In this document: positions 1,010-61,364 of the stretch, in pieces | Position numbering within the stretch: position 1 is the stretch's first letter | How the letters are laid out: every line of letters begins with the position of its first letter | NCBI GenBank assembly: GCA_043228905.1 | Contig: JBHGNT010000009.1 | Location: 10,292,001 to 10,356,000 of the forward strand | Length of the DNA stretch: 64,000 bases | From: Azolla caroliniana | Taxonomy: Eukaryota > Plantae > Polypodiophyta | Direction: 5' to 3' | The notes under the pieces: model-generated | The model's input: only the letters and a program-made list of their open reading frames with translations | The model's database searches: none | Told to the model about the DNA's origin: nothing | Position numbers and translations under genes: made by a program

Positions 1010-3021
1010 ATGGAAAATCAACAAGAAGCTAACAATATGATGACAATGTTCGAGTGGATGCTACAAGAACAACGCGCGATGTCGGAGATTGCGGTGGTAG
1101 TAGAGTGGCTTGTGCAACGAAACGGGCAATTCAACGGGAAGGATGTGTCACGTTATTTACGAGACTACAAGGCAGAGATACTACAGTGCGGAATATCGGA
1201 AGGATTGCAAGTGACATCCTTCAATCGGGTGGCTACGGACGGGCTTCAAGGGTGTATTCACGGGTTACGACAACAAAATCCGATGTGGGAAGCGTTTGAA
1301 GAAGCGTTGAAGACCACGTTCGCTATCGAGGACTCTTCCAAGGCAACACGGAGGGGATTCAAAGATTGGGTACAAAGGCCGGACAAGGGGCTGATGGTCC
1401 TTGATGTGGTTTCCGCATTCGAAAGTCGATTCGGGAGGTTGTCCACGAGAGATCAAGCTATCCTCACATCAGACAAAGTGATCATGTTCTTATGAGCTGT
1501 GGACGTCCAGGACCAGAAAGACCTTGGAGTGCTTCTAGAGGACACGACTACTGAGAGTGGCCTCACCAATACATGGGCAAACATGCGGGACATCGCCGTG
1601 CGATACACAAAAAGGGGGCAATGGCTTAGTAATGAAGAAATGAGGGTTTCAGAACCGATTCCAAAACCAAGATCCGGATTGGAAGACCATCAACCATGGG
1701 ATCGGGAGACTATGACCGAGCAGGGAATTGATTTCAACCACGGTGGAGCAGTTGCTGAAGGAGATGGAGAATCTGAAAATAACAGTGGTGAAGAAGTAAG
1801 AAGAGCGTCCCACAAGTTCCAAGTATATGGACCGTTGGTGCATATGGTGCGATAACACTGAACATGATCGAAAGGATTGCGATGAGCACAACGAGGCGCT
1901 ATGATGGGATCTTATCTATTACAAGGGAAATCGGATTCATTCGATGGACTCTAGGAAGCCACTCCGGCTGAACTTCCGAAAAGGCGGCATGAAGAAGGTC
2001 CTAGAGGAGGAGATAGCGGCAAAAAGCAATTATGCGACAACTGCAAGAATACGTGTGGGGGAGTCATTTGGAGCAAAGGCATCATTTTGGCTGACTTTGA
2101 TGAATTTGGAGCACCGCATAAGTCATCTGGGAAGCTACGGGATGGGAGTGCCCTGTAGATAAGAATAACATGCATGCATTATGTCAATTGCATGAGGTGT
2201 ATGTAGATGAGAAACGATGACGCATGGATGATGCGGTTGGGCCATCAAAGACACTGGAGAGCTGGAACTCCGAAGGGAAGGGGAAAGGAAAAACAATTCC
2301 GGCATTCAAACTCGCTTCGGACATTGAACAACGGACGGACCTAAAGAAGGTTTTCGAAGAGAGAATCCTTGATAGTCGGGTGGAATTTTCTCTACGGGAA
2401 TTACTCGGAATAACGAAGGAGTTCCATGATCTTCTTATGGATCTCATAAAAAGAAAGAGACAAAATACAGAGGAAAATTCTCCAAGGGTGAATGCAAATA
2501 CAGTTCTAATGAACAACACGGAACTGGAGGATGAAATTCCGAGCTCCCACTACACAAGGCCACACTGGGCATGCGCAACTATGGAGACTCCGATCCGAAT
2601 CGGAAACATCAAAGAAGCCGTACTAGTATTGATTGATCACGGGTCAGATATCAATTTGATGTCCAAGGAGTTCTACCGGAAGGGGAAGTGGCTTATAAAC
2701 ACCAGCCATGGATGGAAGATCCGGGCAGCCACAAAAGCCACGGAAGATCTATTTGCGGCTTGTTCGGATGTGACGGTGAAGATCAGAGATGTGGAGATTG
2801 ACCAAAATTTCTTCGTGCAAGATGAGGTCTCACATTCCGTGATCCTTGGGCAACCCTTTATCACGACTTCACGGATGGAGACAAAGGTGCTCGATAGCGG
2901 AGCGGCTTTTGGATGAATTCAGAGTCAAAGTGGAGGGAAAACTGTCCAATTCCTAATTGTGTCATCGAATCACGAAAGGAACAAGAGAGAGCTCTTGTCC
3001 TAAACAAAAATGGATTTTTAA
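1010..3021 (+). pseudogene. gag-protease of host gypsy element (stops and frameshifts)
   Basis: ORF pieces 1010-1495, 1499-1855 and 2224-2916. Aspartic protease motif LIDHGS...VILGQPF. The frame continues through mutated stops to ATG GAT TTT TAA at 3010-3021. Confidence 0.8.
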
Positions 3022-3449
3022 AGCAGACTGTTGCAGAGTGGGGAAGTGATAGTCCGAGAAGCCCTGATACCCCACACATGAACAAAACTCTCGGAGCAAA
3101 ACAAGTACGAATCGGTCTAGATGGGGCATCTACATACACGGCTGTAACCGGAGTAATGAAGAAAGAATTCCAAAAGGTGCAAGATGAGTTACGGTATACA
3201 TCAATCATAAAAGAAGACGAAGAGATCATGGGAGTAGTCCAAAAAGTGTTCTACGGAACACACTACAAAGGCTTGAAGAGCTTGAAGAAGAGAATCACCA
3301 TGAAGACTGGGTAGTTCCGGTGGAATCGGTCGAGATGTACAAGATCATTGTGGAAATGGAGCCGGATGCGCTCCGCAAAGAAGAAGCAATGATATGTACG
3401 AAATATAAGACCATGGAAACGAAGGTGCAACCATCTGCGGGACCATTAC

Positions 3450-3548
3450 TGTCATGAACAGTACTGAGACAGAGAAGGAATTAGTACTAAACGAAGGATT
3501 AGTACTATGAGAGGTGTGGAACTTCTTTGAGAGAAGGAAGAAGTGAGC

Positions 3549-3624
<76 letters not shown>

Positions 3625-3942
3625 TGATAAGAAAGATATGTATTATATGAAGAGAATATACAATGGTGGCTAAAAGGCTTAAGACTGGCGTTGAACCAAT
3701 TTGGTTCAACATAATGCCTAGTGCCCTCTTTTATAGTGTTTTCAGGAGTAATCCTGAAGCTTCTAGAATGTTCCAGAGAAATCTGGAATATACACTAATT
3801 TCCTATAATAAAATGTAAATGAAAATAATATTCTACGTATTACAATAGATGATCTAATGGTCATGAGCTCAACCCATATAACCTAAGGTCATGGGTTCGA
3901 GTCTTGCCATATCATGACACTATCTCCCCTTTAAAACGACGA
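3450..3942 (-). mobile_element. Chromovirus 3' LTR (variant A, 3450-3919) plus PPT stub, inverted
   Basis: Reverse complement runs TGTCATGATATGG...GTTCATGACA and is nearly identical to the LTR at 9279. Preceded on the minus strand by TCGTCGTTTTAAAGGGGAGATAG. Confidence 0.9.
3553..3621. repeat. (GA)n microsatellite inside LTR
   Basis: Long GA run, much shorter in the sister LTR at 9279. Confidence 0.95.
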
Positions 3943-4423
3943 TTCTTGTCATGATATGGCAAGACTCGAACCCATGACCTTATATTACATGGGTCGAGCT
4001 CTTGACCATTAGACTATACATTGTAATACATAGAATATTATTTTCATTTATGTTTTATTATAGAAAATTGATGTATATTCCAGATTTCTCTGGAACATTC
4101 TAGAAACTTCAGGAGTATTCCTTAGAACACTATAAAAGGAGGCACAAGGCATTATTTCGAACCAAATCGGTTCAACGCCAGTCTTAAGCCTCCTAGCTAC
4201 TGTACATTTTCTTCACATAATATATATCTTTTCTTACTCTCTCCCTCCCTCTCACTCACTCTTTCCTTCTCTCGAGAGTTCTTCACCTCTCTTAGTACTA
4301 ATACTTCTTTTAGTACTAATTCCTTCTCTGTCTTAGTACTATTCCTGACAGTTTGAACCGATTTACCTACCTTCTGTCTCTCTCATTTCCTACTAATCTC
4401 TTATTCCTCTTTTCTTTCATCCC

Positions 4424-5575
4424 ATGGCCACTGTTAGTGCTGAAGAATATCAATCTGTTTTCTCGGAATTTCAATGCTTGAAGGAGAAGTTCCATGCTTT
4501 GGAACAAGAAAACCGACGGTTGCTGGGGGATCTTCAGCAAATCTCCTTAGAAAAGCAGCAAACGCAACAACAACATGGGGAACTTGCGTTACGCGTGCAA
4601 CAACTCGAAGCAACCATCGTAGCGATGCAACAACAAGGGCCCGGAACACAAGGGATTCATAAAGAACCCAAGATTGGCCTTCCCACGAAGTTCGATGGAA
4701 CGCGATCGCAGTTTAGAGGGTTCCTTAACCAGGTACGATTAGTTATTCAAATGCATCCTTCCTGATATCCCACCGATGCATAACGAGTGGGTCTAGTAGG
4801 CACTTTGTTAAGTGGCTCAGCGTTGTCATGGTTCGCTCCACTATTAGAAAAGGAATCTCCGTAACTCAACAATTTTGAAGAGTTTCTAGGTGAGTTTAAA
4901 GCATGTTTCGGAGATACTGACAACATCAGGACCGCAATCAACAAAATCCGGCGATTACGCCAAGGTGACCTTCCAGCCTCTGCATACGCTGCAGATTTTC
5001 GTCTACTCGCCGCCGATATCCCTTGGGATGATCAAGCGTTGATGGAGCAATTCCATTATGGTTTACGCAATGACGTCAAGGATTTACTATTGACCTTCCC
5101 CGAAGAGCCAAAGTCCTTTACAGAAGTAATCAGTCGTGCAGTGAGATGTGACAACCGCCTCTTTGAGCGATGTTCGGAACGACAACTACAGATGCCGAGG
5201 GCAAGATCAGAGCCCACCTACGCCTCAGTGGTAGCAAGACCTTTTCCGAGGGAGTCATATAATGCGCCTCCAGCGAATACTCCGACTCCGATGGAGATTG
5301 ACACTACACGTCGTCGAGGGTCATTATCCGAAGAAGAAAAGCAGCGACGCCGTACAAATCGACTATGTCTTTACTGCGGTGGACCAGAACATATCGCAAT
5401 AAATTGCCCCCATAGGCCAAGAAGACAGGTAAACCAAATAGTCGCTAGTTCTAATTGTACTAAATCCGAGCCTATTTCAGTAGGGATATCTGATAGTCCT
5501 AATAGTACTAATATCCCAGATCTAGCAAACAAATTTGATGTCCTTAGTCAGTTAGAAGAAGAGTTAAACGACTAA
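4424..5575 (+). pseudogene. Chromovirus gag (PEG10/sushi-like capsid plus zinc knuckle) with premature stops
   Basis: PTKFDGTRSQFRGFLNQ, PTPMEID and CCHC motifs. In-frame stops at about 4763, 4781 and 4862. Confidence 0.85.
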
Positions 5576-8500
5576 GTCCAGCCAAAATAGGAGCCGTTTG
5601 GTTGGACAACCCTAGATCTGTGCAACCCATTAGTGGTTCCATTCCCTCTAAGCAAGTTAGTGATGTGTTCGTAGCCCAAGTAATAGTTAGTACTAAAAGT
5701 ACCCCTCCAGTACATGTCCTAGCACTCCTAGATTCTGGAGCTAACTCTTGCTTTATGGATAAGAAATTTGCTCAAGCTCATAAGATATCCCTAAGAAAAC
5801 TGCAGTGTCCAACCTCTGTAGTAGTCATTGATGGACGTCCCATTGCTTCCGGAAATATCATAGAAGAGTCAGAGCCCATTAATATTGTCCTAGATAACTT
5901 AGCATGTGTAGTATCATTTAATATTATTAGTATCCTAGAACATCCTATAGTTTTAGGATTATCGTGGTTCGAGTTACATAACCCAGACATAGATTGGAGA
6001 ACAAGAGAAATCCGGTGTCGACAAACCCAAGGCTCAACTCAGAAGATGGCAACCATTTCGCTACGTCAGCTGCGTAAAGAAGGGCGCAAGGAGGAAATGT
6101 TCCTCTTTGCAATATTAGTAAACCCCTCCAACACCACTAAAGAAGAATCCACCGTTCAACTTCCCGAGAAGTATCGTCATTACGCCGATGTGTTCGATAA
6201 AGTACAAGCCAACACACTTCCTCATCATCGACCGTACGATTGCCCCATCGATTTACAACCGGGAAAAGAGTCGCCATGGGGACCGATCTACAATTTGTCA
6301 CCAACCGAGCTGGAAGTTCTTCGGGCCTATATAGAGGAGAATTTGGAAAATGGTTTCATTCGGCATTCGAAATCTCCAACCGGCGCGCCCATTTTCTTCG
6401 TAAAAAAAAAAGATGGATCGCTTCGTCTCGTTGTAGATTACCGTGGCTTGAATAAGGTTACAATCAGGAATAGGTATGCTCTTCCCCTTATCTCAAGTCT
6501 TTTAGAACGGATCAATGGTGCCAGGTTCTTCACGAAGATCGACTTACGGGGAGCATATAACCTCGTACGGATCCGACCAGGAGACGAATGGAAGACCGCG
6601 TTTCGCACCAGATATGGGCCCTTCGAGTATACGGTCATGCCGTTCGGCCTCACTAATGCACCGGCAGTCTTCCATCACATGGCTAATGATATATTCCGAG
6701 ATCTATTGGATGATTGTTTGATCATCTATTTGGATGATCTACTGGTTTATTCAAAGACCCAAGAAGAACATGATTCTCATGTACTATTAGTACTAAAACG
6801 ACTTCGAGAACATGGTCTGTATGCAAAGTTGGAAAAATGTAATTTCGGGTGCAACCAAGTGGAATTTCTCGGCTACATCATTTCATCAGAAGGCATCTCC
6901 ATGGACCCAGCTAAGGTCAAAACGGTGGTAGAATGGCAGACTCCACGTTCGGTGCGGGATGTGTAATGCTTCCTAGGCTTTGCCAATTTTTACCAGAAGT
7001 TCATACAAGATTACTCAAAGATCGTTCTACCTCTCACACAACTTACCAGGAAGGGACAACCGTTCATTTGGTCTGAAGAAACGGACATGTCTTTCGAGAG
7101 TCTTAAAAAGGCATTTACATCGGCTCCAATTCTAGCTCATGTCGATCCGGAAAAACCATTCATTATCGAAGCTGACGCATCGGATTTTACATTGGGGAGC
7201 ATACTATCACAACAGGGGAATGATGAGAGGCTACATCCTGTGGCTTTTCACTCACGCAAGTTTGATGCCGCCGAAATCAACTACGAAATTCATGATAAGG
7301 AGCTATTGGCAATAGTGGATTCTTTTATGCAATGGAGGCATTTTCTGGAGGGATCCTCTCATCCGGTCACCGTATTTAGTGACCACAAGAATCTTGCCTA
7401 CTTTCAGGATGCTTGTGTGTTGAATCGACGTCAAGCTTGGTGGGCCCACTTCCTCACGCGTTTCGACTTCAAAATTACATATCGTCCGGGGAGGCACCAA
7501 GGGAAGGCAGATGCATTATCACGACCTTCGTATCTAGCACCCCGTCCCGGCGAGCCAGCTTTCGATAACCAAAAACAAGTCATCTTGGGACCGACACGAC
7601 TACAAGCAACACAGATCTTTGACATGCCTATGGATTCCCGCGTTATCGATACCATACGTGAAGACTTGAAGACAGATGCGTTCGCCCAAGCTATACTAGC
7701 ACAAATTGATCCCTCTCGAGCATCGTGTTCACAGTCACAACCACCAGGTACGGACTATCGGCAATTCAAATATCATGATGGATTACTCTTCTTTAAAGAA
7801 CTTTTGTATGTTCCTAATGGTTCTTGCCGCCTTTGAGTAGTACAAAATTGTCATGACACATATACAACTGGGCATTTTGGTAGTACTAAAACATTACATT
7901 TAGTACAACGAACATTCTGGTGGCCCTATATGCGACAATTTGTCGAGGATTTTGTTCGGACTTGTGATACATGTTGCAGAGCGAAAATGCCAAGGCATCA
8001 TCCATATGGTTTATTAGAACCATTACCAATTCCAAGCAAGCCGTGGCAATCCATTGCTCTAGACTTCATCACAGATCTTCCAGTCTCTAAGGGGTTCAAT
8101 GCGATTCTAACGGTGGTCGATCGATATACGAAGATGGCTCATTTCTTGCCATGTACTAAGGAGATCTCCAGTGAAGACACTGCCGAAATTGTCATGCGTG
8201 AAGTATGTCAGCATCATGGACTTCCCGATAGTATCATCAGTGACCGTGGACCCCAGTTCGTGTCAAAATTCTGGAAGCACCTTTTTAATGCTCAAGGTCA
8301 CTTGTAACCTCTCCTCCGGCTACCACCCACAAATCGACGGCCAAACTGAACGAACAAATCAAATGTTGGAGCAGTATCTACGGTGCTTTCTCAGCTATCA
8401 TCAAGATGACTGGGCAGATATTCTCCACTTCACCGAATTTGCCTATAACAACTCTATCCACGCATCCACTAAAGTTACGCCATTTTATGCTTATACGGGA

Positions 8501-9286
8501 TGTCACCCCCGGTGGAGTGTACTTGAAACCCCAGAGGTGTCCACAAATCCGTGCGCGGAGGATCGTTTGGAGCAGTTACGCAAGATACAAGCGGATTTAT
8601 CTACTCATCTCCAACAAGCTCAACAAACACACAAGGTCTACGCGGATCGTCATCGACTTCCATCCAGTTTTAATATTGGAGATTGGGTGTGGTTGCTACG
8701 ACGACACATCAAGACTACTCGTCCATGTGAGAAGTTAGATTATCGGCGATTAGATCCTTTCCGTATTATTGGACAGATTAATGATGTTGCTTTTCGTCTC
8801 GATCTACCTCCTCAACTTCGGATACATCCGGTGTTTCATAGTTCTGTCCTCGAACCCTACCACGAGAGCACCATCCCAGGACGTCTTATCCAACCTCCAC
8901 CCCCGATCGAGCTTGAAGATGGGCCGGACTACGAGGTTCCTCAACTTCGGATACATCCGGTGTTTCATAGTTCTCTCCTCGAACCCTACCACGAGAGCAC
9001 CATCCCAGGACGTCTTATCCAACCTCCACCCCCGATTGAGCTTGAAGATGGGCCGGAGTACGAGGTTGCCGCCATCCTTGATTCCAAGATTGTTCGCAAC
9101 AAGCTCTACTATCTAGTCGAATTGCTAGGCTATAGCCCCAGCGAACGTACTTGGGAACCGATCGAGAATGTGACCAATGCTCGTGCTCTTCTTGAAGACT
9201 TCCATCGTCAATATCCACACAAACCAGGTCCTCAATCCAAGACGACTCGTGACACTCGTCGTTTTAAAGGGGGGATAGTGTCATGA
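5563..9286 (+). pseudogene. Chromovirus pol (PR-RT-RH-IN-chromodomain), in -1 frame relative to gag
   Basis: ORFs 5602-6966, 7087-7836, 7930-8307 and 8171-9286 carry canonical motifs. Stops at 6964 and 7834, frameshift near 8285. Confidence 0.9.
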
Positions 9287-9680
9287 TATGGCAAGACTCG
9301 AACCCATGACCTTAGGTTATATGGGTCGAGCTCTTGACCATTAAATCATCTATTGTAATACGTAGGATATTATTTTCATTTACATTTTATTATAGGAAAT
9401 TAGTGTATATTCCAGATTTCTCTGGAACATTCTAGAAGCTTCAGGATTACTCCTGAAAACACTATAAAAGAGGGCACTAGGCATTATGTTGAACCAAATT
9501 AGTTCAACGCCAGTCTTAAGCCTTTTAGCCACCATTGTATATTCTCTTCATATAATACATATCTTTCTTATCATCACTCTCTCTCTTTCTCTCTGTCTCG
9601 CTCACTTCTTCCTTCTCTCAAAGAAGTTCCACACCTCTCATAGTACTAATCCTTCGTTTAGTACTAATTCCTTCTCTGTC

Positions 9681-9781
9681 TCAGGAACAGTACTAAGACA
9701 GAGAAGGTATTAGTACTAAAAGAAGTATTAGTACTAAGAGAGGTGAAGAACTCTCGAGAGAAGGAAAGAGTGAGTGAGAGG

Positions 9782-9825
<44 letters not shown>

Positions 9826-10882
9826 TGATAAGAAAAGATATATATTATGTGAAGAAAATGTACAGTAGCTAGGAGGCTTAAGACTGGCGTTGAACCGATT
9901 TGGTTCGAAATAATGCCTTGTGCGTCCTTTTATAGTGTTCTAAGGAATACTCCTGAAGTTTCTAGAATGTTCTAGAGAAATCTGGAATATACATCAATTT
10001 TCTATAATAAACATAAATGAAAATAATATTCTATATATTACAGTGTATAGTCTAATGGTCAAGAGCTCGACCCATGTAATATAAGGTCATGGGTTCGAGT
10101 CTTGCCATATCATGACACTATCCCCCTTTTAAAACGACGAGTGTAACGAGTCGTTTTGGATTGAGGACCCGGTTTGTCTAGATATTGATGATGGAAGTCT
10201 TCAAGAAGAGCACGAGCATTGGTGACATTCTCTATCAGTTCCCAAGTACGCTCGTTGGGACTATATCCTAGCCAATCGACTAGATAGTAGAGCTTGTTGC
10301 GAACAAGCTTGGAATCAAGGATGGCAGCAACCTCGTACTCAGGTCCATCTTCAAGCTCGATCGGGGGTGGAGGCTGTGTAATACGTCCTGGGATGGTGCT
10401 TTCTTGATAGGGTTCGAGGAGAGAACTATGAAACACCGGATGTATCCGAAGTTGTGGAGGTAGATCAAGACAAAAAGCGACATCATTAATCTTTCCGATA
10501 ATACGGAAAGGACCTAATCGCCGATAATCCAACTTCTCGCATGGGCGAGTAGTCTTGATGTGTCGTCGGAGTAGCCATACCCGATCTCCAATGTTAAAAC
10601 TAGATGGGAGTCGATGACGATCCGCATAAACCTTGTGTGTTTGTTGAGCTTGTTGGAGATGAGTAGATAAATCCGCTTGTATCTTGCGTAACCTCTCCAA
10701 ACGATCCTCTACGCAAGGATTTATGGACACCTCTGGGGTTTCAAGTACACACCACTGAGGGTGACATCCCGTATAAGCATAAAATGGCGTAACTTTCGTG
10801 GATGTGTGGATAGAGTTGTTATAGGCAAATTCGGCGAAGTGGAGAATATCTACCCAATCATCTTGATGATAGCTGAGAAAGC
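9681..10882 (-). mobile_element. Inverted chromovirus 3' LTR (variant B, 9681-10117) plus PPT and integrase/chromodomain fragment
   Basis: LTR matches 3947-4350. ORF 10110-10886 is homologous to the C-terminal part of ORF 8171-9286 but lacks the 43-aa duplication. Confidence 0.9.
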
Positions 10883-12940
10883 CCAATCGGAAATCTATGT
10901 GGGCAATACGGCCGAAGACCGTCGCCAGTCAAGATTGTTGTGATTCAAGCTATGAAAGAAATATGCGAGTCACAATCCGAAGTTTGTATATTTCTTTGTG
11001 CATGTGCACTTTATCATATATGGATTCCGCACTATACACACATTGCGGACCCACTCTATCACTTGCTGCGGAAGGGTAAGAAGTTCGAATGGATGCCAGA
11101 ACATACCAAAGCCATGAAGAAGCTCAAGAAAACACTACGGAGGGTAGAAGCACTTATGAAGCCAAACTATGACCGACCAATCATAGTGACAATTGATACA
11201 AGTCCAACCGGGATCGGATGGGTCATCAACCAAGTCGACTCGGATGGTTCGCGATATCCGATCCGATTCGGAGCAAAAAATCTCAACGAAAGGCAACGCA
11301 GATATGCACAAGTTAAAAGAGAATTATGGGGAGCCGAGTCGCCGATAAAATCAGATCGAGACTATTTTATTGGAGCCGAAGTAGTGATCGAAACGAATTC
11401 TCTTCTGATACTCGAGATGATGCGGTGTTGTACGATACTGGATATGACTATACAAAGATAGATTGCATATGTAAAGTCGCTTAATCCGAAGGTGCGACAC
11501 ATATCCGAAAAAGACAACGCCGTAGCGGATATGCTATCAAGGGCACGGTTCGGAGATGACATAACCGAATTCGATAACGAAGAAGTTTCCGAAAACTACT
11601 TTACTTTAGAGCACATATGCCGGGTGAACGTAATCTGAGAATTTCGGTAAGCCGAATACGAGGGAAAAAGCCTGATGATCGGGAAGGTGCTTCAAGAAAT
11701 CAAGGAATCATCGGACAATATGGAAAAGAGAGCCAAGATTCAAAGTTAAAAGCGGCAAGTTCGGAAGTTCTTCTTGAACAATGGATTAATATGGAGGGAG
11801 CCGAAAAGGCCAGATGGTATACCATTGCGGGTAGTCAGAACAAAAGAGCAACGAGATCGAATAATATCCGAATTTTACAAATCTGATTGACCTAGACATC
11901 GGGGAACATGGGCAACATTTGCGAAGATCAAGCAAAAATATTGGTGGAAGAATATGTACAAAGATGTAGCGGAGTTCACGGGAAGCTACGAAAAATGCCA
12001 AATCTACCTCGGAGTTCGACACTGAGATGAATTACATCCGACCTTCTCACCAACAATCAACTTCAAATGGATGGTCGACATTGTGGCCATGCCAACCGAG
12101 ATCGGACATAAGAAGTACTTAGTATTAGCTCAGAAAGATCTGACGAACCAAGTAGAAGGTCGGGTGCTACGGAGGAAAACATGTTCTGCAGTATGCCAAT
12201 TTCTCTTGGAAGAAGTGTTGTGTAGGTACGGGTGCGTAGGACAAGTGATTGTGGATCAGGGAGAACTTGACTCTGATAAAGCTAGGGCATTCTTCGCCAA
12301 ACATGGAGTATGGTTAACACTAACCACGACATACAATCCGGAAGCCAACAGGAAGATCGAATGAGAACATAGTCCAATTGTTAAAGCACTTGTAAAAGCA
12401 TGCAACGGAAGGGTGAAGAATTGACCATAGATGCTTCCGTATGCACTATGGGCAGATCGCAGAACGCATAGTTCCGTGACCGGTTATATGCCAACAGAAC
12501 TTACGACCGGCCAAGCACCGGTAATGCCGACGGAAATGGCAATTGCGACATGGATAGTGTTGCCGTGGAAGGAAGAGATGAGACAGGAAGAATTACTAGT
12601 GGTTCGGATACGACAACTAGAGAGAAGACCCGAAGACATTGCGGAAGCAATACGCAAACAACAAGAAGCGTGGTTCTAGAACAAAAGTTGATTCGACACA
12701 AAGCACCGTCTACGACCACAGAAGATTGAAGAAGGAGATTAGGGGATAGTCTATGACAGTAGTTTGGATCATCAACACACAACGATTCGGAAATTCGCTA
12801 AAAGGTGGTTTGGACCATATGAAGTTCGGAAAGTTTTCGACAACGGAACCTACCAATTATGTGAGTTGGACGGGGCAATAATACAGGTAGTTGTAGCGGG
12901 GAAATGAGTGAAGATTTTCAAGAAGCGAAGTAACGCCGAA
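10883..12940 (+). pseudogene. End of RT, RNase H and integrase of host gypsy element
   Basis: ORFs 10940-11461, 12071-12364 and 12431-12679 with RH/IN motifs; many stops. Confidence 0.85.
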
Positions 12941-21049: not shown

Positions 21050-24000
21050 CATTTTTCCGCTTGAAGACCCAATTGTTTCTCAGGGCTCCATGTACCAAAG
21101 GGAGAGACGTTGATCGGTTGCGGGTGGGTGTATAAAGTCAAATACAACGCCGACGGCTCCATTAATTGGTACAAGGCCCGACTGGTGGCAAAGGGCTATG
21201 TGTAGCAGCAAGGCATCAACTATGATGAGACATTCGCGCCAGTTGCGAAGATGATAACCGTTCTTGTCTTGCTTGTTGTGGCACCGACAAAGGGGTGGTA
21301 TCTCCATCAGATGGACGTGAAAAACGTTTTCCAGCAAGGTGACCTTGAGTAACTAGTGTATATGATCCAGCCCCCCGGATTTTAGTTCGATATGAACACG
21401 TCAGTCGTTTGATGATTGAAGAAGTCCCTATATAAACTGAAGCAGGCCCCACGAGCATGGAATGCAAAAATCACGTAGAGACTATGTTGGATGGGATTTG
21501 CGTCGTCAAAATCGGACTCTTCACTCTTCATCCGGTAGGGTTAGAACGGGCCGGTGAGCAGTTTGCTCTATGTGGATGATCTTCTCATCGTCAGCGCCGA
21601 CCTGGAAGAAATTGACCGCGTCAAGTCCAAACATGCGACATCGTTCGGAATGAAGGATCTTGGTGACCTTCATTACTTCCTCGGGATTGAAGTGATCTGC
21701 ACCCTGGACAACATATCAATCAATCAACGCCATAATGTGTGATAGGGATACACGCTCCCGTTGAACAATGCTCGGCCACAACCGAGCGTAGAATCAAAAC
21801 ACAGAAAACGGGTAATGAACGCACGACACAGTGAAGAGAAGAGTACACAGGATGTTAGCATGGAAAACCCAAACTAGGGAAAAAACCACGGCAGCCCACA
21901 GACTGCAAGCTATCACTATATCACAATGTACAATAGTAAAGCACCGAGGCAACGACCTCGAGCTTGCTATCTTCGCCACAGGCAGCGGTTACAACAGAGG
22001 CAATGACCTCTTCCTCTCTCTCTCTCTCTGTACACAGTTACGCACTCAAATCTTGCACCAACAAGAATGACAACACACATATACACTAAGTTTTCCCTAA
22101 GTCATATTTATACTAATATGACTTTTTGGCTATTTACAAATATAGCCCCATTGGACTCTCAGAAAACATATTTACGAATATGTCCCTTCATCCGGTGAGC
22201 ACTCCTCACCGGGCCTGCATCATCCGGCTCTTGCTGGGCACTCGTCATCCGGATCTCATAGGGCCTTCCTTGCCGGGTACTCGTCATCCGGTTCTCACCG
22301 GGTCTTCCGTTGTCGGGTACTCCACATCCGGTTTCTTCGCACTTCCTATACGGAGGGACCTGTTTCCTAACAAATGTGTTGAGTATGCTCATCAACGTTG
22401 TTCTTCGCACTTCCTATACGGAGGGACCTGTTTCCTAACAAATGTGTTGAGTATGCTCTTCAAATTCAGTATGACGAAATGCAAGCCTATATCGACACCT
22501 CTAGACCGAAAGACATCGTTCGGAATGAAGGATCTTGGTGACCTTTATTACTTCCTCGGGATCGAAGTGATATGCACCGTGGAAAGCATATCGATCAGTC
22601 AACGCCATAATGTGTTGAGTATGCTCTTCAAATTCAGTATGATGAAATGCAAGCCTATCTCGACACCTCTAGACCGAAAGACATTGTTCGGAATGAAGGA
22701 TCTTGGTGACCTTCATTACTTCCTCGGGATCGAAGTGATCTGCACCCTTGAAAGCATATCGATCAGACAACGTCATATTGTGTTGAGTATGCTCTTCAAA
22801 TTCGGTATGACGAAATGCAAGCCTATCTCGACACCTCTAAATCGAAATGTTAAGCTTTGCCAAGGGTTAGAAGCAACATGCGACACGACACAATTCCGGA
22901 AAATTGTTTGGAGCCTTATTTATCTAACGATCACTCGATCAAACCTTAGTTATCCGGTCGGACTAATAAGTCAATTTATGTCGCACCGACCATCGAACAT
23001 TTGTAGTGCGCACATCGGATAATGTGATATGTCAGTGGTACTAAGGATCAGGCATTGTTGTATCGGGCCAGTATAGCCAGACAACTTGTTGGCTATACAG
23101 AAACCGATTGGGCCGGAAATGTCGGTGTTCGCAAGTCAACATCTGGATTCGCGTTTTCACTTAAAAGCGTCGCGGTCGTTTGGAGCAGCAAAAAGCAGCC
23201 GATTGTAGCACAGTCGAGGACCGAGGCCGAGTATAGAGGAGTGGCTATCGCGACATGTGAGGCCATTTGGCTCAAACGGTTATTGAAGGATCTACAAGAG
23301 GAGGTGTCCAGTCCAACAACGATCTACTGCGACAACCTCAGCATTATCCAAATGGCGAAGAACCCCATCTTCTATGCCCAAACAAAGCACATTGAGGTGC
23401 ATTACCATTTTGTCAAAGAATGAGTCCTCTCCGGTGAAGTCGAAATGGTGTATGTTTCGACGAATCGGCAAACTGCCGACATCTTCACCAAACCTCTCGG
23501 CCTAGACAAGATGCGGCAATATTCAGGCATGCTTGGTCTGCAGCACCGACTGAAGAAGTCAGAATGTTCAGATCGGCTGAAGAAGATGAGGACGGATGGA
23601 CATGTGCAGAAAGATTAGAAAAGTGGAGACTAGTCAAACGAAAGCCGGAACCGGAGCCAACTGAGCCAAGGGACGGAAAAGCTGAGAAGGGCAAGAGAGG
23701 CAGCAGAGTTCAAAAGGACAGAGCTGACCAAGCAAAGGCCAAGAACAATACATGGGCAAATTGGTCAAGGGCCTGAAGAAGGAAGAATCGGAGAAAGCCG
23801 ATTCGAATAAGAGCCAGAACGAATCGGAGATGCTCGATTTGGTCGAGAAACTTGATTCGGAAGAGCCGAATTAGTTGAAGGCCAAGCGGACAAGGAGGCA
23901 ACCAAAGCCGACATCGACATGGAGGAGCCAACGGGTCGAGGGGCACCAACACCACGACAACGACGAAGCTGACTTGGACCAAGGGAGCAGACGAGCCAAC

Positions 24001-25251: not shown

Positions 25252-27114
25252 TGTCACATTCTAGACATGAACCTCTGACTTTTAACACACACACATTACA
25301 TTGTGTTGTGTTAACCATATGGAAACTCTTGTGAATTGTCCACATTCGATTGTGAACTTGTATATATTGTAGAGTCTAGTGTATAGTACATTCGAGAATA
25401 TTCTAGTCGTTAGTATATTCTAGAATTATTCTATGGTATATTCTAAACGGGTATATCGAGATATTTCTCGAGTATATTCTAGAGATATTCAATTTCGGAA
25501 ATTGTATAAATACTTGTAACATCCTTGGTCCCTTTCAAAGGATTCAACACCAGTCATTGACACATCAATCTAGTATTCTCGTTTTGCCTCATCTTTGTCT
25601 CCTTGATCATTATTTCTGTCTTCATGCCCTCATGGCGCTCACAACATCTAGAGTTCCTAGCCTCGTCACATCTAGCTCCAAGTTCATTCGTCGATCGTAG
25701 CCCCATCACATGTGCTCCGTCCAAGTCCACGCTTGGTGTGTCCATGACAGTTTGAATCCCTTCCAACTGGGAGCACTACTCGTCTTTGTCATCGTCTTTG
25801 CTTCTAGAGTTACCATCATCACCCTCCTTGCTTCCGGAGTTACTAGCATCAACATCCTTGTCTTCTACGTCATCATTTTCATCACCTCTTTGCCCAACCA
25901 TTGTCGTCATCAACACTACTTGTCATCATTTTTAGGTATCATTTTGCATCACGGTTTTGGTGAGGAGTGCTTTCGATTGCTCACCTTCCCAGTTCCGGTG
26001 GGGGTCACAACCGCTCACTTTTCCTGGTGGGGATCGGATCATTGCGTGCTTGCACTGCATTTTCGCTATAGTTCAAGTCTCGCGCCACTTTCTGTTGGCG
26101 AGGAACGATTTTGATCGCTCACCTTCTAGTTTCGGTGGGGGTCACAACCGCTCACTTTCCTAGTGGGGATCGCGTGGGTTTCTCGCTAGCGCTATCGTTT
26201 GTGCCGTGTCTTGGGTCAACCTTGACTATTTACCCTCTCATAATAGAAGTCGAGTCGACCGCTTCACTTGCACTACTTTGTCCGTTCGTGTTCCAGTTCT
26301 TGGTGAGGGTCGCATGGTCGCTCACGCCCGTTCATGTTCAATTCTCCGTGAGGGCCGTATGGTCGCTCACCAGTTCTCGGTGAGGGCCCCATGGTCGCTC
26401 ACATCCGTTCGTGTTCCAGTTCTCGGTGAGGGTTGCATGGTCGCTCACGCCCGTTCGTGTTTTCGATGAGGACCGCACATGGTCGCTCATGTTCCAATTC
26501 CCGATGAGGGCCACAAATGGTCGCTCACTCCTATTCGTGTTCCAGTCTCCGGTGAGGACCGCACATGGTCACTCACTCCCGCTATTGTTCTTGTTCTAGA
26601 TCCCGACGAGGACCGACATAGTCGCTCATGCCTGCTATTGTTCATGTTCCAGTTCCCGGTGAGGACCACGCATGGTCACTCACACCCGTTGGTGGCTGTG
26701 TTCCAACTCTCCGCAAGGACCGACATGGTCTCTCATGCCCGTTGGTGTTTGTGTTCCAGTTCCCGACGAGGACTGCACATGGTCACTCATGCCCATTGGT
26801 GTTCGTGCTCCCCATGAGTACTGCACATGGTCGCTCACGCCCGTTGGTATTCGTGTTCCAATCCAGGGTGAGGACCGCACATGGTCACTCATGTCCCTTT
26901 CAAGGGATTCAACACCAGTCATTGACACATCAATCTCGTATTCTCGTTTCGCCTCATCTTTGTCTCCTTGATCATTATTTCTGTCTTCATGCCCTCATGG
27001 CGCTCATAACATCTAGAGTTCCTAGCCTCATCACATCTAGCTCCAAGTTCATCCGTCGCTCGTAGCCCCATGATTTGTGCTCCGTCCTAGTCCGCGCTTG
27101 GTGTGTCTATGACA
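25252..27114 (+). mobile_element. Non-autonomous LTR element with internal tandem array and U3-less 3' LTR
   Basis: 5' LTR 25252-25749; partial 3' LTR 26893-27114; TSD GCATG/ACATG; no recognisable coding domains. Confidence 0.8.
26280..26892. repeat. Degenerate ~40-50 bp minisatellite (GAGGACCGCACATGGTCGCTCACGCCCGTTCGTGTTCCAGTTC-like)
   Basis: More than ten recognisable units. Confidence 0.9.
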
Positions 27115-29343: not shown

Positions 29344-30601
29344 TCAAAAGAATGGAACAAGCTCTACTGCCTGGACTGCCATATGCCTAATGACATCCGG
29401 CCGTTGTTTCCCGTACATCCTAATGCATTCATCCCTAGCTAGTTGCACAAGCACAGACCTATATTCTGGATCAGGTGACATTGTAGCTAGCATTACTGCG
29501 AATGTCACAGTGCGGAGAAACCCTGGCACAGTCTCGTACATGGCAAGAACAACCTCCATAGCTGTTGAGTTTGCAAATTCTTCTGGCTCCTTGAAGTCTC
29601 TTGTATACCCTGAGGTAAGAAAATTAGCTAGAAAAGCATTTGAATAGCCCCCTAAAATCCATTGTTTTTCTTGTTTTGTCAGATGTGTCAGTGTATCAAG
29701 CTTCCTCTTCACCTCAATGAAGATACTGGCGAGCTTTTTGCTTGCTGGGAATGGACCTTGGGCTCTGGTAGTTGCAACAGAGTAGACCTCCTCTGCAGCC
29801 TTATCATAGTGCTCAAGATAGGAGTCTGATAACTGTTGGAGCTCGGGTTCGAGCATTTTCTCTAAGACACACCTCTCACAGTTGCAATTGAATCCCCCAC
29901 CAGTCCGAATGAGTACCTTATCCCGCTTCCTCAAGGGAGACATGCAATCAGTATAACAAATGCTTATCTCTTCATTTGCTTTCATGGCTTTTGCAGCAAT
30001 AAAAATCATAACTTCTCCAACCAAAAGACGGCCCACATTCGGGCTACATGAATGGTTTACGAACGAGGGAAGAAGCCAAAGTGCATTGATTTTCGATTCT
30101 AATTCAGGCTCACTTCTGGGGGCCGGGATTTTCCCAGAAAATGAGTTTGTTATGATTATATGCTTGATTCGAGCTTCATCAAAAGCCATATCCTCATTTT
30201 CTTCCTCATTGAGGGAGAAAAACTCAGAATCGCTGACTTTCTGGTCAAAAAGCTCAACTTTCGGCACATTATGAACATGGTGGCTGTGATGATGCTTTTC
30301 TACTGACCCCGCCAACGAATATAGCTGGCGCAGTGCCCTTGGCGAGGACTTCACAATCGACATGACTTTATCATACATTTCTCGATTTCCATCATCGTTG
30401 TATGCGGCCGAAAAGGCATTGCTAGCAATGAGGATTTGTCCTACAGAGACGTCTTCTGTGAGAAAGAGACCCCTGCCGCGGCCATCTCTTGTTAGGCCGA
30501 TCCGTAAAGGGCCGATAAAGTCAGGAATCTTGGGTGCCTTTCGATAATCAGCCCCGGAAAGGAGATATTGGGATAGATCGATAGTCTCGCAAGATGCTTC
30601 A

Positions 30602-30643
<42 letters not shown>

Positions 30644-30762
30644 GCATACAAAGAAGAAGAAGATGAAGAAGAAGAAGAAGAAGAATACCTTAAGGTAGAC
30701 CTGATATAGTTTATCGATCTGTTATTCCACAGAGAGGCGGTTCGAAGCTGAAGAAGAAGCAT
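29344..30762 (-). CDS. Intronless SET-domain lysine methyltransferase (ATXR1/SDG35-like) with N-terminal poly-Ser extension
   Basis: 472-aa intact ORF. Motifs GRGRGLF, NHSCSPN, EEISICY and post-SET FNCNCERC. Confidence 0.85.
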
Positions 30763-33460
30763 TTCTTCACGCTAAAGCAGTCACAATAAGCGAGACAGTA
30801 CACAGCAACAGCAAAGCCCGCGGAGGAGAGGAATGTTAAAACTTAAACCCTCCCATATATTTCTTAATTCCTGCAAATACCCCTCCCCCTAACCCACAAC
30901 GTTTTCGTTATTTCCCTAAAATGCCCTTGCCTCAACTAACGTACTTCCTTGCTTCGTGTGTGTGTGTGTGTATGTGGTTTGGTTTGGTTTGGTTTCAAGG
31001 CCAAGAAACCGAACCGAACCGGGCCCATTGCTATTCTCTCCAACCAATCTGCTAAGGATATATCTTCACTAAAAGAACCATACTTCTCACTAATAGGAGG
31101 TTTGCCAAAATATACCGTTGTAGCTCTCACAAAAGCAATGCACAATTTGAGGTTTTAACCCACTTGAAAAGCCTTAACAACCATTTTGAAGGTTCTAATC
31201 GGAATGTTGTTCCTAATCGGAAAAGCCTTAACAACCATTTTGAAGGTTCTAATCGGAATGTTGCTCCTCATCTCTCATGAGATTCCTAAAAGACCCTTTA
31301 GTTTCAAGAAATAAATTTGTAGCATGTGGTTTCATTCCCCCATAGAATGAATGCCATGCATGACCCCATGATGATGCATTGACCTAAAACTTGTTGGTAT
31401 GATTCTGAATGTCGGGAAATAAGCATTAGGCTTAAAAGGAATTTACCGAGAGGGACTCAATGCTTAGAAACACCCTTTTAGTGATTGGTTCGAAAGAAAA
31501 GAGGGAAATATCTCAATTTAACTAAGGCACAAATGTGCTCATGTGGAATTAGTGTGAATATGGTCATAAAATATCTTGCACCCAATTGAGACCACATGCC
31601 AAAATTGTTTGAAAGTCAAGCATTCCATTAGAAGTTTACAAAAAAGAAGGTATACATGGTGATATACATTGTTTTCATGCATATAGAGCTTTTGCATCAT
31701 TGATTGTTTGAATATTTAATAAAGTAGTATTCAAGGGCTTCTCAACAAGTGGGGTCTCCTTGGCCAAATCATGAGCTCTCCTTTGTCAATCAAGCCTACA
31801 ATTTAGAAAGAAAATATGAGAATGCATGTCTTGAAAATGAGTAGCAAGAATGCGTCGAGACTAACAACATCCAAGCATTGAATAGAAACACGAACATATA
31901 TACAAAGCAAGGGGTTTCTCTCCATCATGTCATTAGGATAAGACAAGTACTAGGAGACCCTTTATAAATGAAAGCAAGGAAGGGCAAGGGGAATAAACAA
32001 AAGAGAAATCAACAGCAGTATAATTTGCAAAATAATCTATTATAGCTTAACTTTAAAACACAATATAACATCTTTTACTAATGTCTTTTGGTACCTTTAT
32101 CAAAGATTATGTCTTACTCGAGTGTTCTTCTTGAGAACCACCTCAAGATTGTTAGCTAGCCAAGTTGACTCGAGGTGTGAAAGGGCCGAAAGGCCGAATG
32201 TTGTGTAGGCGAAACAAGTAGTCGAACGAGTGTGGAGTCGAACAAGTGTGCAGTTGAATGAAAGCCGAAAAATAGATAATGCCGAATATAAATAATAGGT
32301 TTTGGTACCTTTATCGAAGATTATGTCTTTTGGTAATGTCATTTGGTACCTTTATCAAAGATTACGTCTTACTCGAGTGTTCTTCTTGAGAACCACCTCA
32401 AGATTGTTACTTAGCCAAGTCGACCCGATGTGTTAAAGGACTGAAACGCTGAATATTGTGTAGGTGAAAAAAGTAGTCGAACAAGTGTGGAGTCTGACAA
32501 GTGTGTAGCCGAACGATAGCCAAAAAATAGATAATGTTGAATATAAATAGTAGGTAGTTGTAACTGTAGGAGTTTACTATTCTTGCTAAACAACATGTTA
32601 TATTTTCTTGACGTAAGCTTCCCATGCCACCTATAAAAAGGGGCATAGGGCACTGTAAAATCTATTGGTCTATAAGTGTATCAAGGTTAATATAGTTGTT
32701 TTTATTGAGGGAACTTTGTGTCCAACTGTGCTTTGTAATTTAACTGTGTAAGTCGATCAGTTGTGGCCAATTCAATTAGGGTACTTAGGAAGTAAGTATC
32801 TGACTTGTGTACTGTCGAGAGGATGGTAACACAAATTTAGCATGCTCGATTCGATCTGTGACAGACAAAGAACACTAGAAGCTTGATGTCGTATGATCGC
32901 AATAGCAACGACGGCTCTATGAGACGCAAAGAACCTCATACTCGATCAGAACATTAACAAGCACAAGCAAAATTCGTTCGGCAGGAGGCCGAAGAAGATT
33001 TAATTTTGGATTTAGAAACTTTCGACGAGAGCAGTTCATAGGATGAGACGTTCGACATTTGTGAAAGCAGCTTTTCAATCTACATACAACAAGACGACAC
33101 AATGTCGTATCCTTACCCTAAGTATAATGATGAAGCAGATGTTGAAGCAGATGTTGAAGCGCATGTACGCGCATTTCTTACTATATGGTAGGCAAACCAT
33201 GTGTCATAGAGATTATCATAAGCAGACGCAGATGCGTCAAAGATAGCCGAATTCTGATTATCACTAGAAGGCCAGTCCGCAAATTGGTACTCCCAGTACG
33301 ACCTTGGTGAATTCGAATCATTTACACAACTAACTGACAAATTTGTCCAATTGTTTCACTAGCAAATCGCACAGTGAGAACTGATGAGGCAATTCTATGC
33401 TGCATACCAGGAGCAATATGAAACAATTCCACAATTCATTATTAGATTCTAGAATCTAAG

Positions 33461-44259: not shown

Positions 44260-44811
44260 GACATAGGGGTGGTTTGGTAAATTTGGAACTTCCAGGGGCA
44301 TTCTTGTAAATAAACGAACTTCCAGGGGTATCCTAGTACTTTTCCCTATTATAAATTTGTGTGAGAAAATAATCATAAATTTATTTATCATACTCATCAT
44401 AAATTTTGTCATCATACTTATCATAAATTTGGTTATCATAGTGATCATAAATTTGATCATTATACTTATCATAAATTTGATCATCATACTTATCATAATT
44501 GATTATCATAAATAAAAAGGAGACTCTACATATAATACATATAAATTTTAATAAGTTAAAACAAGAGTTTAAAATTAAAAGTTAAAAGTTAGAGCCTATA
44601 GAGAATATTTTTTAGTATTTTTTAACCTATAAACCTTTAAACCGAACCATATAAACAGAAATCAATAAGCCGATAAATTCAAAACCGAACCGAAACCGAT
44701 TAGTAACATTTGAAACCAAACCAAACCGTTTATTTATCTTTGAACCTATAAACTGTTAAGCCACGGTTTTTTGGTTCGGTTCGGTTTGAGCCGAAATCGG
44801 GCCCATTGCTA
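44260..44811. repeat. AT-rich ATCATAAATTT minisatellite plus AACCG-rich DNA-transposon-like end
   Basis: 12/24-bp periodic array at 44370-44510, AAACCG repeats, and terminal GGGCCCATTGCTA shared with 31021-31033. Confidence 0.55.
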
Positions 44812-59164: not shown

Positions 59165-61364
59165 AAAGTTATCAAATTGTACAACAAATCATTCCATTTT
59201 ATAAATAAGGTTGTGGAACAGCTTGTTTCATATGGCTTATCAGCATTGTCCTCCCACCATTTGGCTTTGTACAATGCTTTTATGTCTTCCAGCTACAATA
59301 ACCTCTGGGGTTAGCATCAATATAATCACTGTATTCTTCCTCCATACAGGACATTGTAAGATTTTCATTTGATTAGAGTATCTGTTTGCATTAGGGTATC
59401 AATTCCCAGCGTTCTTGTATTTAAAGCATCCCCTTTGGTTGTACATCAAAGTTCATTTTGTCACAATTTTGGGTCTATTGTATCAAAACGAAATATTTTA
59501 GTGTAAAGAGTATTTTTTTTCTTTGAATGAGCAAGACACCCAAAGTAACTACTTGCACAGAAAATATATCTATTGCCAGCTTTGTGAGGATGTGAATTTT
59601 AGTAAAATTGGAAATTTGTTTGATTGGATAATAAGGTAGCCCTTCCGCCTTGTGTTTGGATCCATCTGTTGATAGTACTTGATTGCCATGGCATGTTAAA
59701 AATTGTGTTGGAAATACTAGGGTTGCCATCAAAGTTTTGGATGAGGTCAACAGTCACATGAGTAGTGCCATACAATACAATATCTTACAAAGTCATCAAT
59801 AAATTTTGGATGAAATGATTTGTAGTTAAGTCATACCACGTTAAAGTTTATCATATTACAAGGCCAAGGCTAGTTTCACAAGTCTTGGAAGGTGGATGTG
59901 GTGCTGATATTGATAAATGATTGGCAACAATAAGGTAACATTGCAAAAAGTGTTGAGATTCACACATGTTGGCATCATGCTTTGTGAATTTGAACTCTCA
60001 TGCGATTGATTATCACATGATTTTTTTTTGGACCTTCCATGATTTGACAACACTTTGATAGGTATGTGTTTGCTTTGTGAACCAAGTCTAATATCTTAAA
60101 GGAATGCATCACGCATGGTTTATGAGTATCTATTTTAAATATATGGCACAAACAAGTTATAAAACTTCTTTAATTTGCATTTGGTGAGGTATAAATGAGA
60201 GTAATTACCAAAAACCAATGAAAGCAACAATCATGTATGTAGAAATGGACAAAAATGCTATAACGCTTTTGTTAGCTTGTGTGGTTCTAGAAATTTGCCT
60301 TGAAGATTTCTAGTTTGTTTTTATGCATGCCACTAGATTTTGTCGTCCCTTTATATTACATGAAACCTCAAGACAACAGTAGATATTATGGCTATCTAGA
60401 CTCTCTTGAGCACATGGATGTCCATGGATTGCTGATTTAGTATATAGCCAATTGATTGTTGTACAAGACAAGAAAAAAGGAGCTTCCATGAGGGTAGGTA
60501 GCCCCTAATGGGCCATGGATTCCTCTGTCTATTTATGCCAAGAAAACAATCATCTCATGCTTGGCCATGAACCAATGAATAAGCCCCTCGATCTATGTCT
60601 TGCCTATCCACTTTTGTATGGCAAACCAATTGAATGATGGGGCGTTGCAACAAATCAAATGCTTTTTAGAGAGCCTCGTCTCACCGACCAACAATATCAC
60701 ATTGAACATGAGAATCAATAGGCTAGTTAGTACAATCTAGATGGGCCGCAAGAAGAGACATCATCATCACAACTACACTAGTAACCGTCGAACCCTTATG
60801 ATATATATAATATATCGAACTTATAGTGATTCCACATGAAGGAGCATCGTAAGGGAGTTGAATTTGTTCAGTCCACACGGAAGTAGCAATATCACGTTAC
60901 GTTGGGGAAGTGAGGAAAGGCGTTTGCGTAATGCTGAGTTGGGTCAAGAAATGTGTAATGTATATGTATGTACATCGATCCATGAGGAGGGAGGGTGCAA
61001 AGATGTTTATGGAGGAGAAGGAGAGATTCAATTGAGACCACCTGCAATTCCATTCATTCCTTATATTATTAATTATGTATTATTATTATTATTATTATTA
61101 TTTGTCCTTCCCTCCCTTTCTTATTTCCTTTTTGTTATCACGCCAGAAAACCAAATTTAGGGTTAGTTATTTTAGGCTTTCTTGCAGAGCTCGCCATCGC
61201 CAGTGGAGCAGACATATCATACGGACACGCAGATTGACGATCCGATCCGATCCGATCCGATCCGACCCGACCTTCTCCTCCTCCTCCTCCTCCTCCTTCT
61301 AACACAGGTGTGTACACATTCTTTCTTCTACTTCTCCTTCGTCTTCAGAGTGTTTGCACCGCCC

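What the first reader, a model, noticed from the sequence alone, without database searches (positions are those of the whole stretch)
4131..4364. Chromovirus appears to self-prime reverse transcription (no tRNA PBS)
Seen: after the 5' LTR (ends 4350) there is no TGG-type tRNA PBS. Instead TTGAACCGATTT (4353-4364) is perfectly complementary over 12 nt to AAATCGGTTCAA (4164-4175), about 30 nt downstream of the LTR TATAAAA (4131), where transcription should start. Known: fission yeast Tf1 primes with the first 11 nt of its own RNA, which fold onto the PBS and are cut off by RNase H. Inference: this plant element uses the same tRNA-independent mechanism, unlike most described plant LTR retrotransposons.
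Basis: partly seen in the sequence, partly recalled or inferred. Interest (0 to 1): 0.85.

Follow-up and report, generated by a model that had tools for sequence, protein, structure and literature searches.

The report
Self-priming retrotransposon lineage in a fern
In this dead jumping gene, likely from a fern, the 12 bases where DNA copying starts pair exactly with the predicted first 12 bases of its own RNA, and sister families keep the pairing with different letters, so the lineage likely primes itself without a tRNA, a trick shown in yeast Tf1 and already predicted in print for the related moss elements.

Summary
Observation confirmed: 4353-4364 is the exact complement of 4164-4175; 0 of 5000 shuffles reach 12 nt. 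The element is a broken chromovirus (Gag-PR-RT-RH-IN-chromodomain). Its RT falls on the fungal/vertebrate Tf1/sushi side, apart from seed-plant elements (100/100). A host gene groups with ferns. The covariation test succeeds. In 24 LTR/PBS pairs from the window and related contigs, 22 are perfect 12-bp duplexes, in 7 different sequences. Pairing stops sharply at both ends (0 of 24 at -1, -2, +13, +14). Self-priming is therefore very likely (0.92), but the start site and the RNase H cut were not observed. It is not new in kind: Neumann et al. 2019 predicted self-priming for 83% of 1500 plant Tcn1 elements, and this scan noted it before in a probable moss genome. Additions here: a likely fern host, where a 2010 PCR survey found no Tcn1; the covariation; and antisense tRNA-type A/B boxes kept at the LTR start in 11 of 14 divergent relatives, function unknown.

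The parts
3947..4350 (+). 5' LTR (TG...CA), subfamily 'Y'
   Evidence: 98.7% identical to the inverted LTR at 9681-10117
4131..4137 (+). TATA box
   Evidence: sequence; a TATA start lies 29-33 nt before the primer in 21 of 22 pairs measured
4164..4175 (+). Predicted self-primer: first 12 nt of the RNA (+1 inferred at the conserved C|A)
4176..4183 (+). R-side extension of the duplex: bulged C, 2 bp with the GT spacer, then GTC pairing with GAC at the LTR end (4347-4349)
   Evidence: RNAalifold consensus of 15 LTRs; GTC/GAC 97.8% paired but without two-sided changes
4353..4364 (+). Primer-binding site, complementary to 4164-4175
4424..5575 (+). gag, with three in-frame stops
5548..9286 (+). pol (PR-RT-RH-IN-SH3-chromodomain), overlapping gag in the -1 frame; broken by two stops, a frameshift in integrase and a 129-bp tandem duplication (8809-9066)
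9266..9278 (+). Polypurine tract
   Evidence: sequence
9279..9684 (+). 3' LTR of another subfamily ('X'), its end lost at a tail-to-tail junction
9681..10882 (-). Inverted 'Y' 3' LTR plus the 3' end of pol of a second copy (chromodomain with YxxW..Y cage residues)
3448..3942 (-). Inverted 'X' 3' LTR with its PPT, abutting the 5' LTR
4006..4016 (-). Antisense tRNA-type A box in U3
3962..3972 (-). Antisense tRNA-type B box in U3, 44 nt after the A box start

Best explanation
This is a decayed copy of a Tcn1-like (Tf1/sushi-group) chromovirus, likely in a fern genome, whose PBS is the exact complement of the 12 nt predicted to begin its own RNA, so the family likely self-primes reverse transcription. 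Steps: (1) Pol II would start at A4164, 33 nt after the TATA box (inferred). (2) Nucleotides 1-12 pair with the PBS; this is shown in sequence and kept by compensatory change across families, and a short R/U5 helix extends it (predicted). (3) The element's RNase H would cut after nucleotide 12 and free a 3'-OH (inferred from Tf1, which cuts between nucleotides 11 and 12). (4) RT would extend it into minus strong-stop DNA. (5) Copying of the attached RNA primer into the plus strand would regenerate the PBS (inferred), which would explain why primer and PBS change together and why pairing ends at exactly 12 nt. This copy cannot supply the proteins, but its cis signal is intact.
For: Perfect 12-bp complement, 0 of 5000 shuffles; fold z -7.2. 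An unbiased search of 40 Gag-upstream regions found a perfect 12-bp match starting 2 nt after the LTR end in 23. Of 24 primer/PBS pairs, 22 are perfect and 286 of 288 positions are Watson-Crick. There are 7 sequence types; each pairs 12/12 with its own PBS and 4-11/12 with the others. Pairing is 0 of 24 at -2, -1, +13 and +14. On the 15-row alignment the helix is 95.6% paired, with two-sided changes in 8 of 12 pairs, and 0 of 500 shuffles reach the covariation score. RNAalifold finds the helix unprompted. The types map to separate RT branches. RT lies with Cryptococcus, Trametes, Ustilago and vertebrate sushi-like proteins, apart from seed-plant and Closterium elements (100/100). The Tf1 mechanism is as described in PMC7175516 (passage). 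The Tcn1 prediction is in PMC6317226.
Against: No direct evidence: RNA runs gave 45 reads and 61-70 reads per run, mostly from diverged copies, with no pile-up of starts. Two of 24 pairs are imperfect (L006 one G-U, L024 one mismatch), and L058 has a damaged primer and was left out. Most contigs come from one series of assemblies and are collapsed repeats, so the independent evidence is 7 types (at least 10 paired substitutions among the 6 in-clade types), not 24. One row (L082) is misaligned by 3 columns, which inflates its two-sided counts. Novikova et al. 2010 found no self-priming signal in Selaginella SM-Tcn1. No host tRNA set was available to search.
Confidence: 0.92

Rival explanations
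1. The duplex is a structural element (packaging, dimerisation or translation control), and priming uses another primer or site.
For: Covariation shows pairing, not priming. No cleavage or cDNA end was observed.
Against: The duplex sits exactly at the PBS position (2 nt after the LTR end in all 24 pairs), has a fixed length of 12 and a sharp edge at a conserved pyrimidine-purine start. No alternative tRNA site follows the LTR. The geometry is that of Tf1.
Confidence: 0.05
2. A host tRNA or tRNA fragment primes. The PBS contains TTGAACC, the complement of the tRNA T-loop motif GGTTCAA (motif recalled).
For: The T-loop-like heptamer is present in 3 of the 7 primer types. A host tRNA set could not be searched.
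Against: The PBS starts TTG, so it cannot pair with a 3'-CCA end. Four types lack the heptamer (GAATCAA, GAGTCAA, TGATCAA, TCGACAA), and every change is mirrored in the element's own R, which a host tRNA would not require.
Confidence: 0.02
3. Chance match, or a by-product of the local palindrome (TTCGAACC-AAATC-GGTTCAA) around 4164.
For: The window's primer does lie in an imperfect palindrome.
Against: 0 of 5000 shuffles. The upstream AACC stays fixed when the primer changes to GAATC (L018, L023), so the palindrome is not conserved while the PBS match is.
Confidence: 0.01

Closest known systems
Plant Tcn1 chromovirus clade (moss and club-moss; Neumann et al. 2019, PMC6317226; Novikova et al. 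2010, PMC2864245)
   Same: Chromodomain with cage residues, gag overlapping pol, about 5.7 kb, no tRNA PBS, self-complementary PBS (predicted for 83% of 1500 Tcn1 elements), RT on the fungal Tf1/sushi side.
   Different: Host is likely a fern. [quoted passage not shown] Neumann's test was a BLAST match of at least 10 bp, not covariation. The antisense A/B boxes did not appear in the passages read.
Tf1/Tf2 (Schizosaccharomyces pombe), Tj1 (S. japonicus), Cryptococcus Tcn1, vertebrate sushi
   Same: PBS complementary to the start of R; RT in the same broad group.
   Different: The primer is 12 nt here against 11 in Tf1. The mechanism is proven by experiment in Tf1 only. RT is 58% identical to an unlabelled Cryptococcus protein.
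Helenus / Cassandra / Ajax (TRIMp3; Kojima 2024, PMC10886601), for the A/B boxes only
   Same: tRNA-type A and B boxes inside an LTR without a functional tRNA.
   Different: Those are non-coding elements under about 1.3 kb thought to use the boxes as their own promoter. Here the boxes sit antisense at the outer edge of U3 of a protein-coding element that has its own TATA box. Kojima notes in passing that 'not a few' Repbase LTRs hold tRNA-like sequence.

Membership tests
Tf1-type self-priming elements | PBS complementary to the element's own R start, not to a tRNA 3' end | tested here: met
   12/12 pairs; PBS starts TTG; covariation in 7 types
Tf1-type self-priming elements | The complementary segment is the 5' end of the RNA | tested here: inconclusive
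   TATA distance and C|A edge fit; RNA reads too few to show starts
Tf1-type self-priming elements | RNase H cleavage releases the primer, which starts minus-strand DNA | not testable with these tools
   needs biochemistry; RNase H domain present
Tf1-type self-priming elements | Duplex extended by further R/U5 pairing (known to me from paper titles in reference lists and from recall) | tested here: inconclusive
   GTC/GAC 97.8% paired but invariant; outer 3 bp 73% paired
Plant Tcn1 clade | Ty3/gypsy domain order with a C-terminal chromodomain | tested here: met
Plant Tcn1 clade | Aromatic-cage chromodomain (95% of Tcn1) | tested here: met
   Tyr, Trp, Tyr present in the neighbouring copy; this copy lacks the Trp; cage positions recalled from HP1
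Plant Tcn1 clade | RT groups with fungal/vertebrate Tf1/sushi elements, not with Tekay/Reina/CRM/Galadriel | tested here: met
   100/100 branch apart from seed-plant and Closterium RTs; outgroup rows carry species names, not lineage labels
Plant Tcn1 clade | Monophyly with the type members (PpatensLTR, SM-Tcn1) | tested here: inconclusive
   No labelled moss or Selaginella sequence was returned. A 25-row group with unnamed proteins and Adiantum nelumboides P0339 has only 87/80 support.
Plant Tcn1 clade | gag overlapping pol; length 5.5-9.4 kb | tested here: met
   ORFs 4424-5575 and 5548 onward; 3947-9684 is 5.74 kb; ranges
Plant Tcn1 clade | 5-bp target-site duplication | not testable with these tools
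   The copy is rearranged and has lost its outer end; no fetched contig was seen with both flanks
Helenus / TRIMp3 | Short non-coding element | tested here: not met
   5.7-kb coding element

The most novel reading that the evidence does not exclude
Ferns carry their own radiation of self-priming Tf1/sushi-type chromoviruses, and this lineage has kept, at the outer edge of U3 and facing outward, a tRNA-type Pol III promoter (A box, 43-44 nt, B box) while the DNA around and between the boxes drifted. Each LTR would then recruit TFIIIC/Pol III as a portable insulator, antisense promoter or landing site, in an autonomous element that needs no tRNA at all for priming.
Probability: 0.4. Interest if true: 0.55.

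Novelty: new member of a known kind. Interest (0 to 1): 0.33.

Why it matters
Self-priming in plant Tcn1 elements had rested on single-copy complementarity. Seven co-varying primer types give comparative evidence, and they fix the predicted start site and primer length (12 nt) to the base, so one 5' RACE or in vitro RNase H experiment can settle it. A fern host would fill a gap in the Tcn1 range (moss, club-moss, now fern) that bears on the fungus-to-plant horizontal-transfer debate. The conserved antisense A/B boxes hint at an overlooked Pol III or TFIIIC function in LTRs of coding elements.

Tried and rejected
Whole-genome copy analysis: no genome is held. Start-site mapping: 45 reads on the window; 70, 67 and 61 reads and 3 contigs on L006; no start pile-up, so uninformative. 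The small-share runs were not used as evidence. Idea that a U3 copy of TTGAACC hides the 3'-LTR primer in a hairpin: rejected, because the upstream bases do not co-vary with the primer. Real tRNA gene in the LTR: ARAGORN finds none in the window, and Rfam gives no tRNA hit to E 10 in 3300-11000, only hairpin-type miRNA matches below threshold over the inverted LTR junctions. Relaxed ARAGORN called 8 of 30 LTR starts with inconsistent anticodons, not taken as evidence. Labelled Tcn1 references: none returned. Viral contigs gave nothing close. Neumann's Additional files 1 and 3 (per-element PBS data and sequences) were too large to read and may list related PBS motifs; the two 12-mers searched were absent from the five readable files. 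The landing-pad idea for the A/B boxes was not tested; the one nested insertion in the window (3947) lies downstream, not upstream, of the neighbouring LTR's boxes.

Full report
1. Observation. The 5' LTR spans 3947-4350 (TG...CA). After a GT spacer, 4353-4364 (TTGAACCGATTT) is the exact reverse complement of 4164-4175, with no pairing at the adjoining positions in that register. TATAAAA lies at 4131-4137. In 5000 dinucleotide shuffles of the LTR, none gave a 12-nt complement to the 20 nt after the LTR. The duplex is part of the minimum-energy fold from either start tested (z -7.2 and -7.0).

2. What the element is. Pfam shows Gag, protease, RT, RNase H, integrase, SH3 and chromodomain. Gag (4424-5575) has three in-frame stops. 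Pol overlaps it in the -1 frame and carries two stops, a frameshift and a 129-bp duplication, so this copy is not autonomous. Four LTRs of two subfamilies lie within 7 kb. The 5' LTR matches the inverted LTR at 9681-10117 (5 differences in 380 columns), and the 3' LTR matches the inverted LTR at 3448-3919 (5 in 385); the types differ by 12-14%. The locus is therefore a rearranged nest (my inference: nested insertion, inversion, then a deletion at a 4-nt microhomology). The PBS goes with its own 5' LTR type.

3. Host. A FRIGIDA-like gene in the window is 63-65% identical to Adiantum and Ceratopteris proteins and 48% to Sphagnum and Ceratodon proteins. In a 33-row tree it groups with the fern sequences (99/96). 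No labelled lycophyte or horsetail sequence was in that tree. I put a fern-type host at about 0.9.

4. Clade. RT trees of 73 and 50 rows separate the element, together with Cryptococcus, Trametes, Ustilago, amphibian and fish proteins, from seed-plant and Closterium elements by a 100/100 branch. The window's family forms a 100/99 group with contigs at about 73-97% RT identity. Its wider group includes an Adiantum nelumboides protein but has only 87/80 support. No labelled moss or Selaginella Tcn1 sequence was available, so Tcn1 membership is likely (about 0.8) but was not tested against type members.

5. Covariation. A metagenome scan gave 77 loci (best 80 of 154 confirmed stretches), and a prokaryote-collection scan gave 15, apparently contaminating eukaryotic contigs. 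One search examined 40 Gag-upstream regions without assuming any motif. A perfect 12-bp match beginning 2 nt after the LTR end was found in 23. Of the other 17: two have 11 of 12 pairs (L006, L024); six have a PBS but no intact R in the contig; four have no LTR junction; four distant elements show 8-9 bp (one of them, L083, read by eye); one starts too near the contig end. Across 24 primer/PBS pairs (L012 counted once), 22 are perfect. The types are AAATCGGTTCAA, AAATTGGTTCAA, ATTCCGGTTCAA, AATTCGAATCAA, AGTTCGAGTCAA, ACTCTTGATCAA and CAGTCTCGACAA. Each pairs 12/12 with its own PBS and 4-11/12 with the others, and positions -2, -1, +13 and +14 pair in 0 of 24. On a 15-row alignment the helix is 95.6% paired, 8 of 12 pairs show two-sided change, and 0 of 500 shuffles reach the covariation score (L082 is misaligned there, and the shuffles ignore kinship). 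RNAalifold finds the helix and a short extension unprompted. A TATA start lies 29-33 nt upstream in 21 of 22 pairs measured, and 23 of 24 primers begin with A after C. Limits: most contigs come from one series of assemblies and are collapsed repeats, so the independent evidence is seven types.

6. Mechanism. Shown: the duplex, its position, its length and its conservation. Inferred from Tf1 (PMC7175516 passage: first 11 bases pair with the PBS, RNase H cuts between 11 and 12): the start at 4164, a cut after nucleotide 12, and priming. Inferred by me: regeneration of the PBS from the attached primer, which would explain the sharp 12-nt edge. RNA reads could not test the start. In S. pombe Tf2, most wild-type transcripts start downstream and lack the primer (PMC5341516 passages), so a start-site assay needs a de-repressed tissue.

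7. What is known. Neumann et al. [quoted passage not shown] Novikova et al. 2010 (PMC2864245; passages and section 7) found no Tcn1 by PCR in 26 ferns and horsetails and no priming signal in SM-Tcn1. Tj1 (PMC4600332, passages) and Cryptococcus Tcn1 are proposed self-primers. PMC3601003, PMC8282616 and PMC13469084 were read as passages only and added nothing on this point. The primary Levin papers were seen only as references. Searches for Tcn1 or chromoviruses in ferns (listings) showed no such report; genome-paper supplements were not searched and could hold one. This scan noted self-priming in a probable moss element before (e1-7364707; not checked).

8. Extra feature. The first 130 nt of 30 LTR starts were read on the opposite strand. 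Among 17 representatives under 80% identical, 14 belong or are assumed to belong to the window's RT group (L015, L025 and L034 by identity only). Eleven of these 14 carry an A box and a B box, 43-44 nt apart, with at most 3 mismatches in total and 0 of 100 shuffles as good. The misses are L015, L021 and L025; 0 of 3 outside the group have them; the sense strand has at least 5 mismatches in all 30. L045 also has them. Mean pairwise identity among 13 representatives is 0.65 (A) and 0.74 (B), against 0.36-0.37 between and outside the boxes. That comparison is anchored on the boxes, and the consensus was recalled and adjusted after seeing the data, so it leans favourable. It is not a tRNA gene. 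Kojima 2024 (PMC10886601, parts 1-4 of 6 read) describes such boxes in non-coding TRIMs and holds that autonomous partners must use Pol II. Two searches found no report for coding plant elements. Function is untested; a TFIIIC-bound insulator or an outward/antisense Pol III promoter is my best guess.

9. Verdict. Real, and very likely self-priming (0.92). A new member of a known kind, already predicted for its clade. Modest added value comes from the covariation, the likely fern host and the A/B boxes. Interest 0.33.

Noticed in passing
window 3962-4016 (- strand), the same motif in the other three LTRs by alignment; L007, L012, L017, L018, L020, L028, L032, L034, L043, L045: Antisense tRNA-type A box and B box, 43-44 nt apart, at the outer edge of U3, kept across otherwise unalignable LTRs.
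   Followed up: partly
window 3448-10882: Four LTRs of two subfamilies in the order X(-), Y(+), internal, X(+), Y(-); the last two are fused tail to tail at a 4-nt microhomology (9681-9684), forming a long hairpin. Likely a nested insertion plus an inversion.
   Followed up: partly
L012, L023, L028: Contigs with head-to-tail copies sharing an LTR; L028 joins two subfamilies with different primers. These may be tandem arrays or assembly collapse.
   Followed up: no
L047, L054, L083, L084: Distant Tf1/sushi-side elements with 8-9-bp self-complementary PBS, starting AG, shorter than the 12 bp of the fern group.
   Followed up: partly
P0339 (Adiantum nelumboides), P0052: A named fern protein falls in the neighbouring Tcn1-like branch. 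P0052, a member of the window's RT group, carries a precomputed dUTPase family hit (PF00692; family name recalled).
   Followed up: no
window 2221-2916, 29344-30771, 61176-62894: A DUF4100 ORF (probably another retroelement's Gag region) beside the nest; a SET-domain gene; a FRIGIDA-like gene used to place the host.
   Followed up: partly
window 26461-26899, 44347-44514, 22441-22847: Degenerate tandem arrays with units of about 53, 24 and 168 nt.
   Followed up: no
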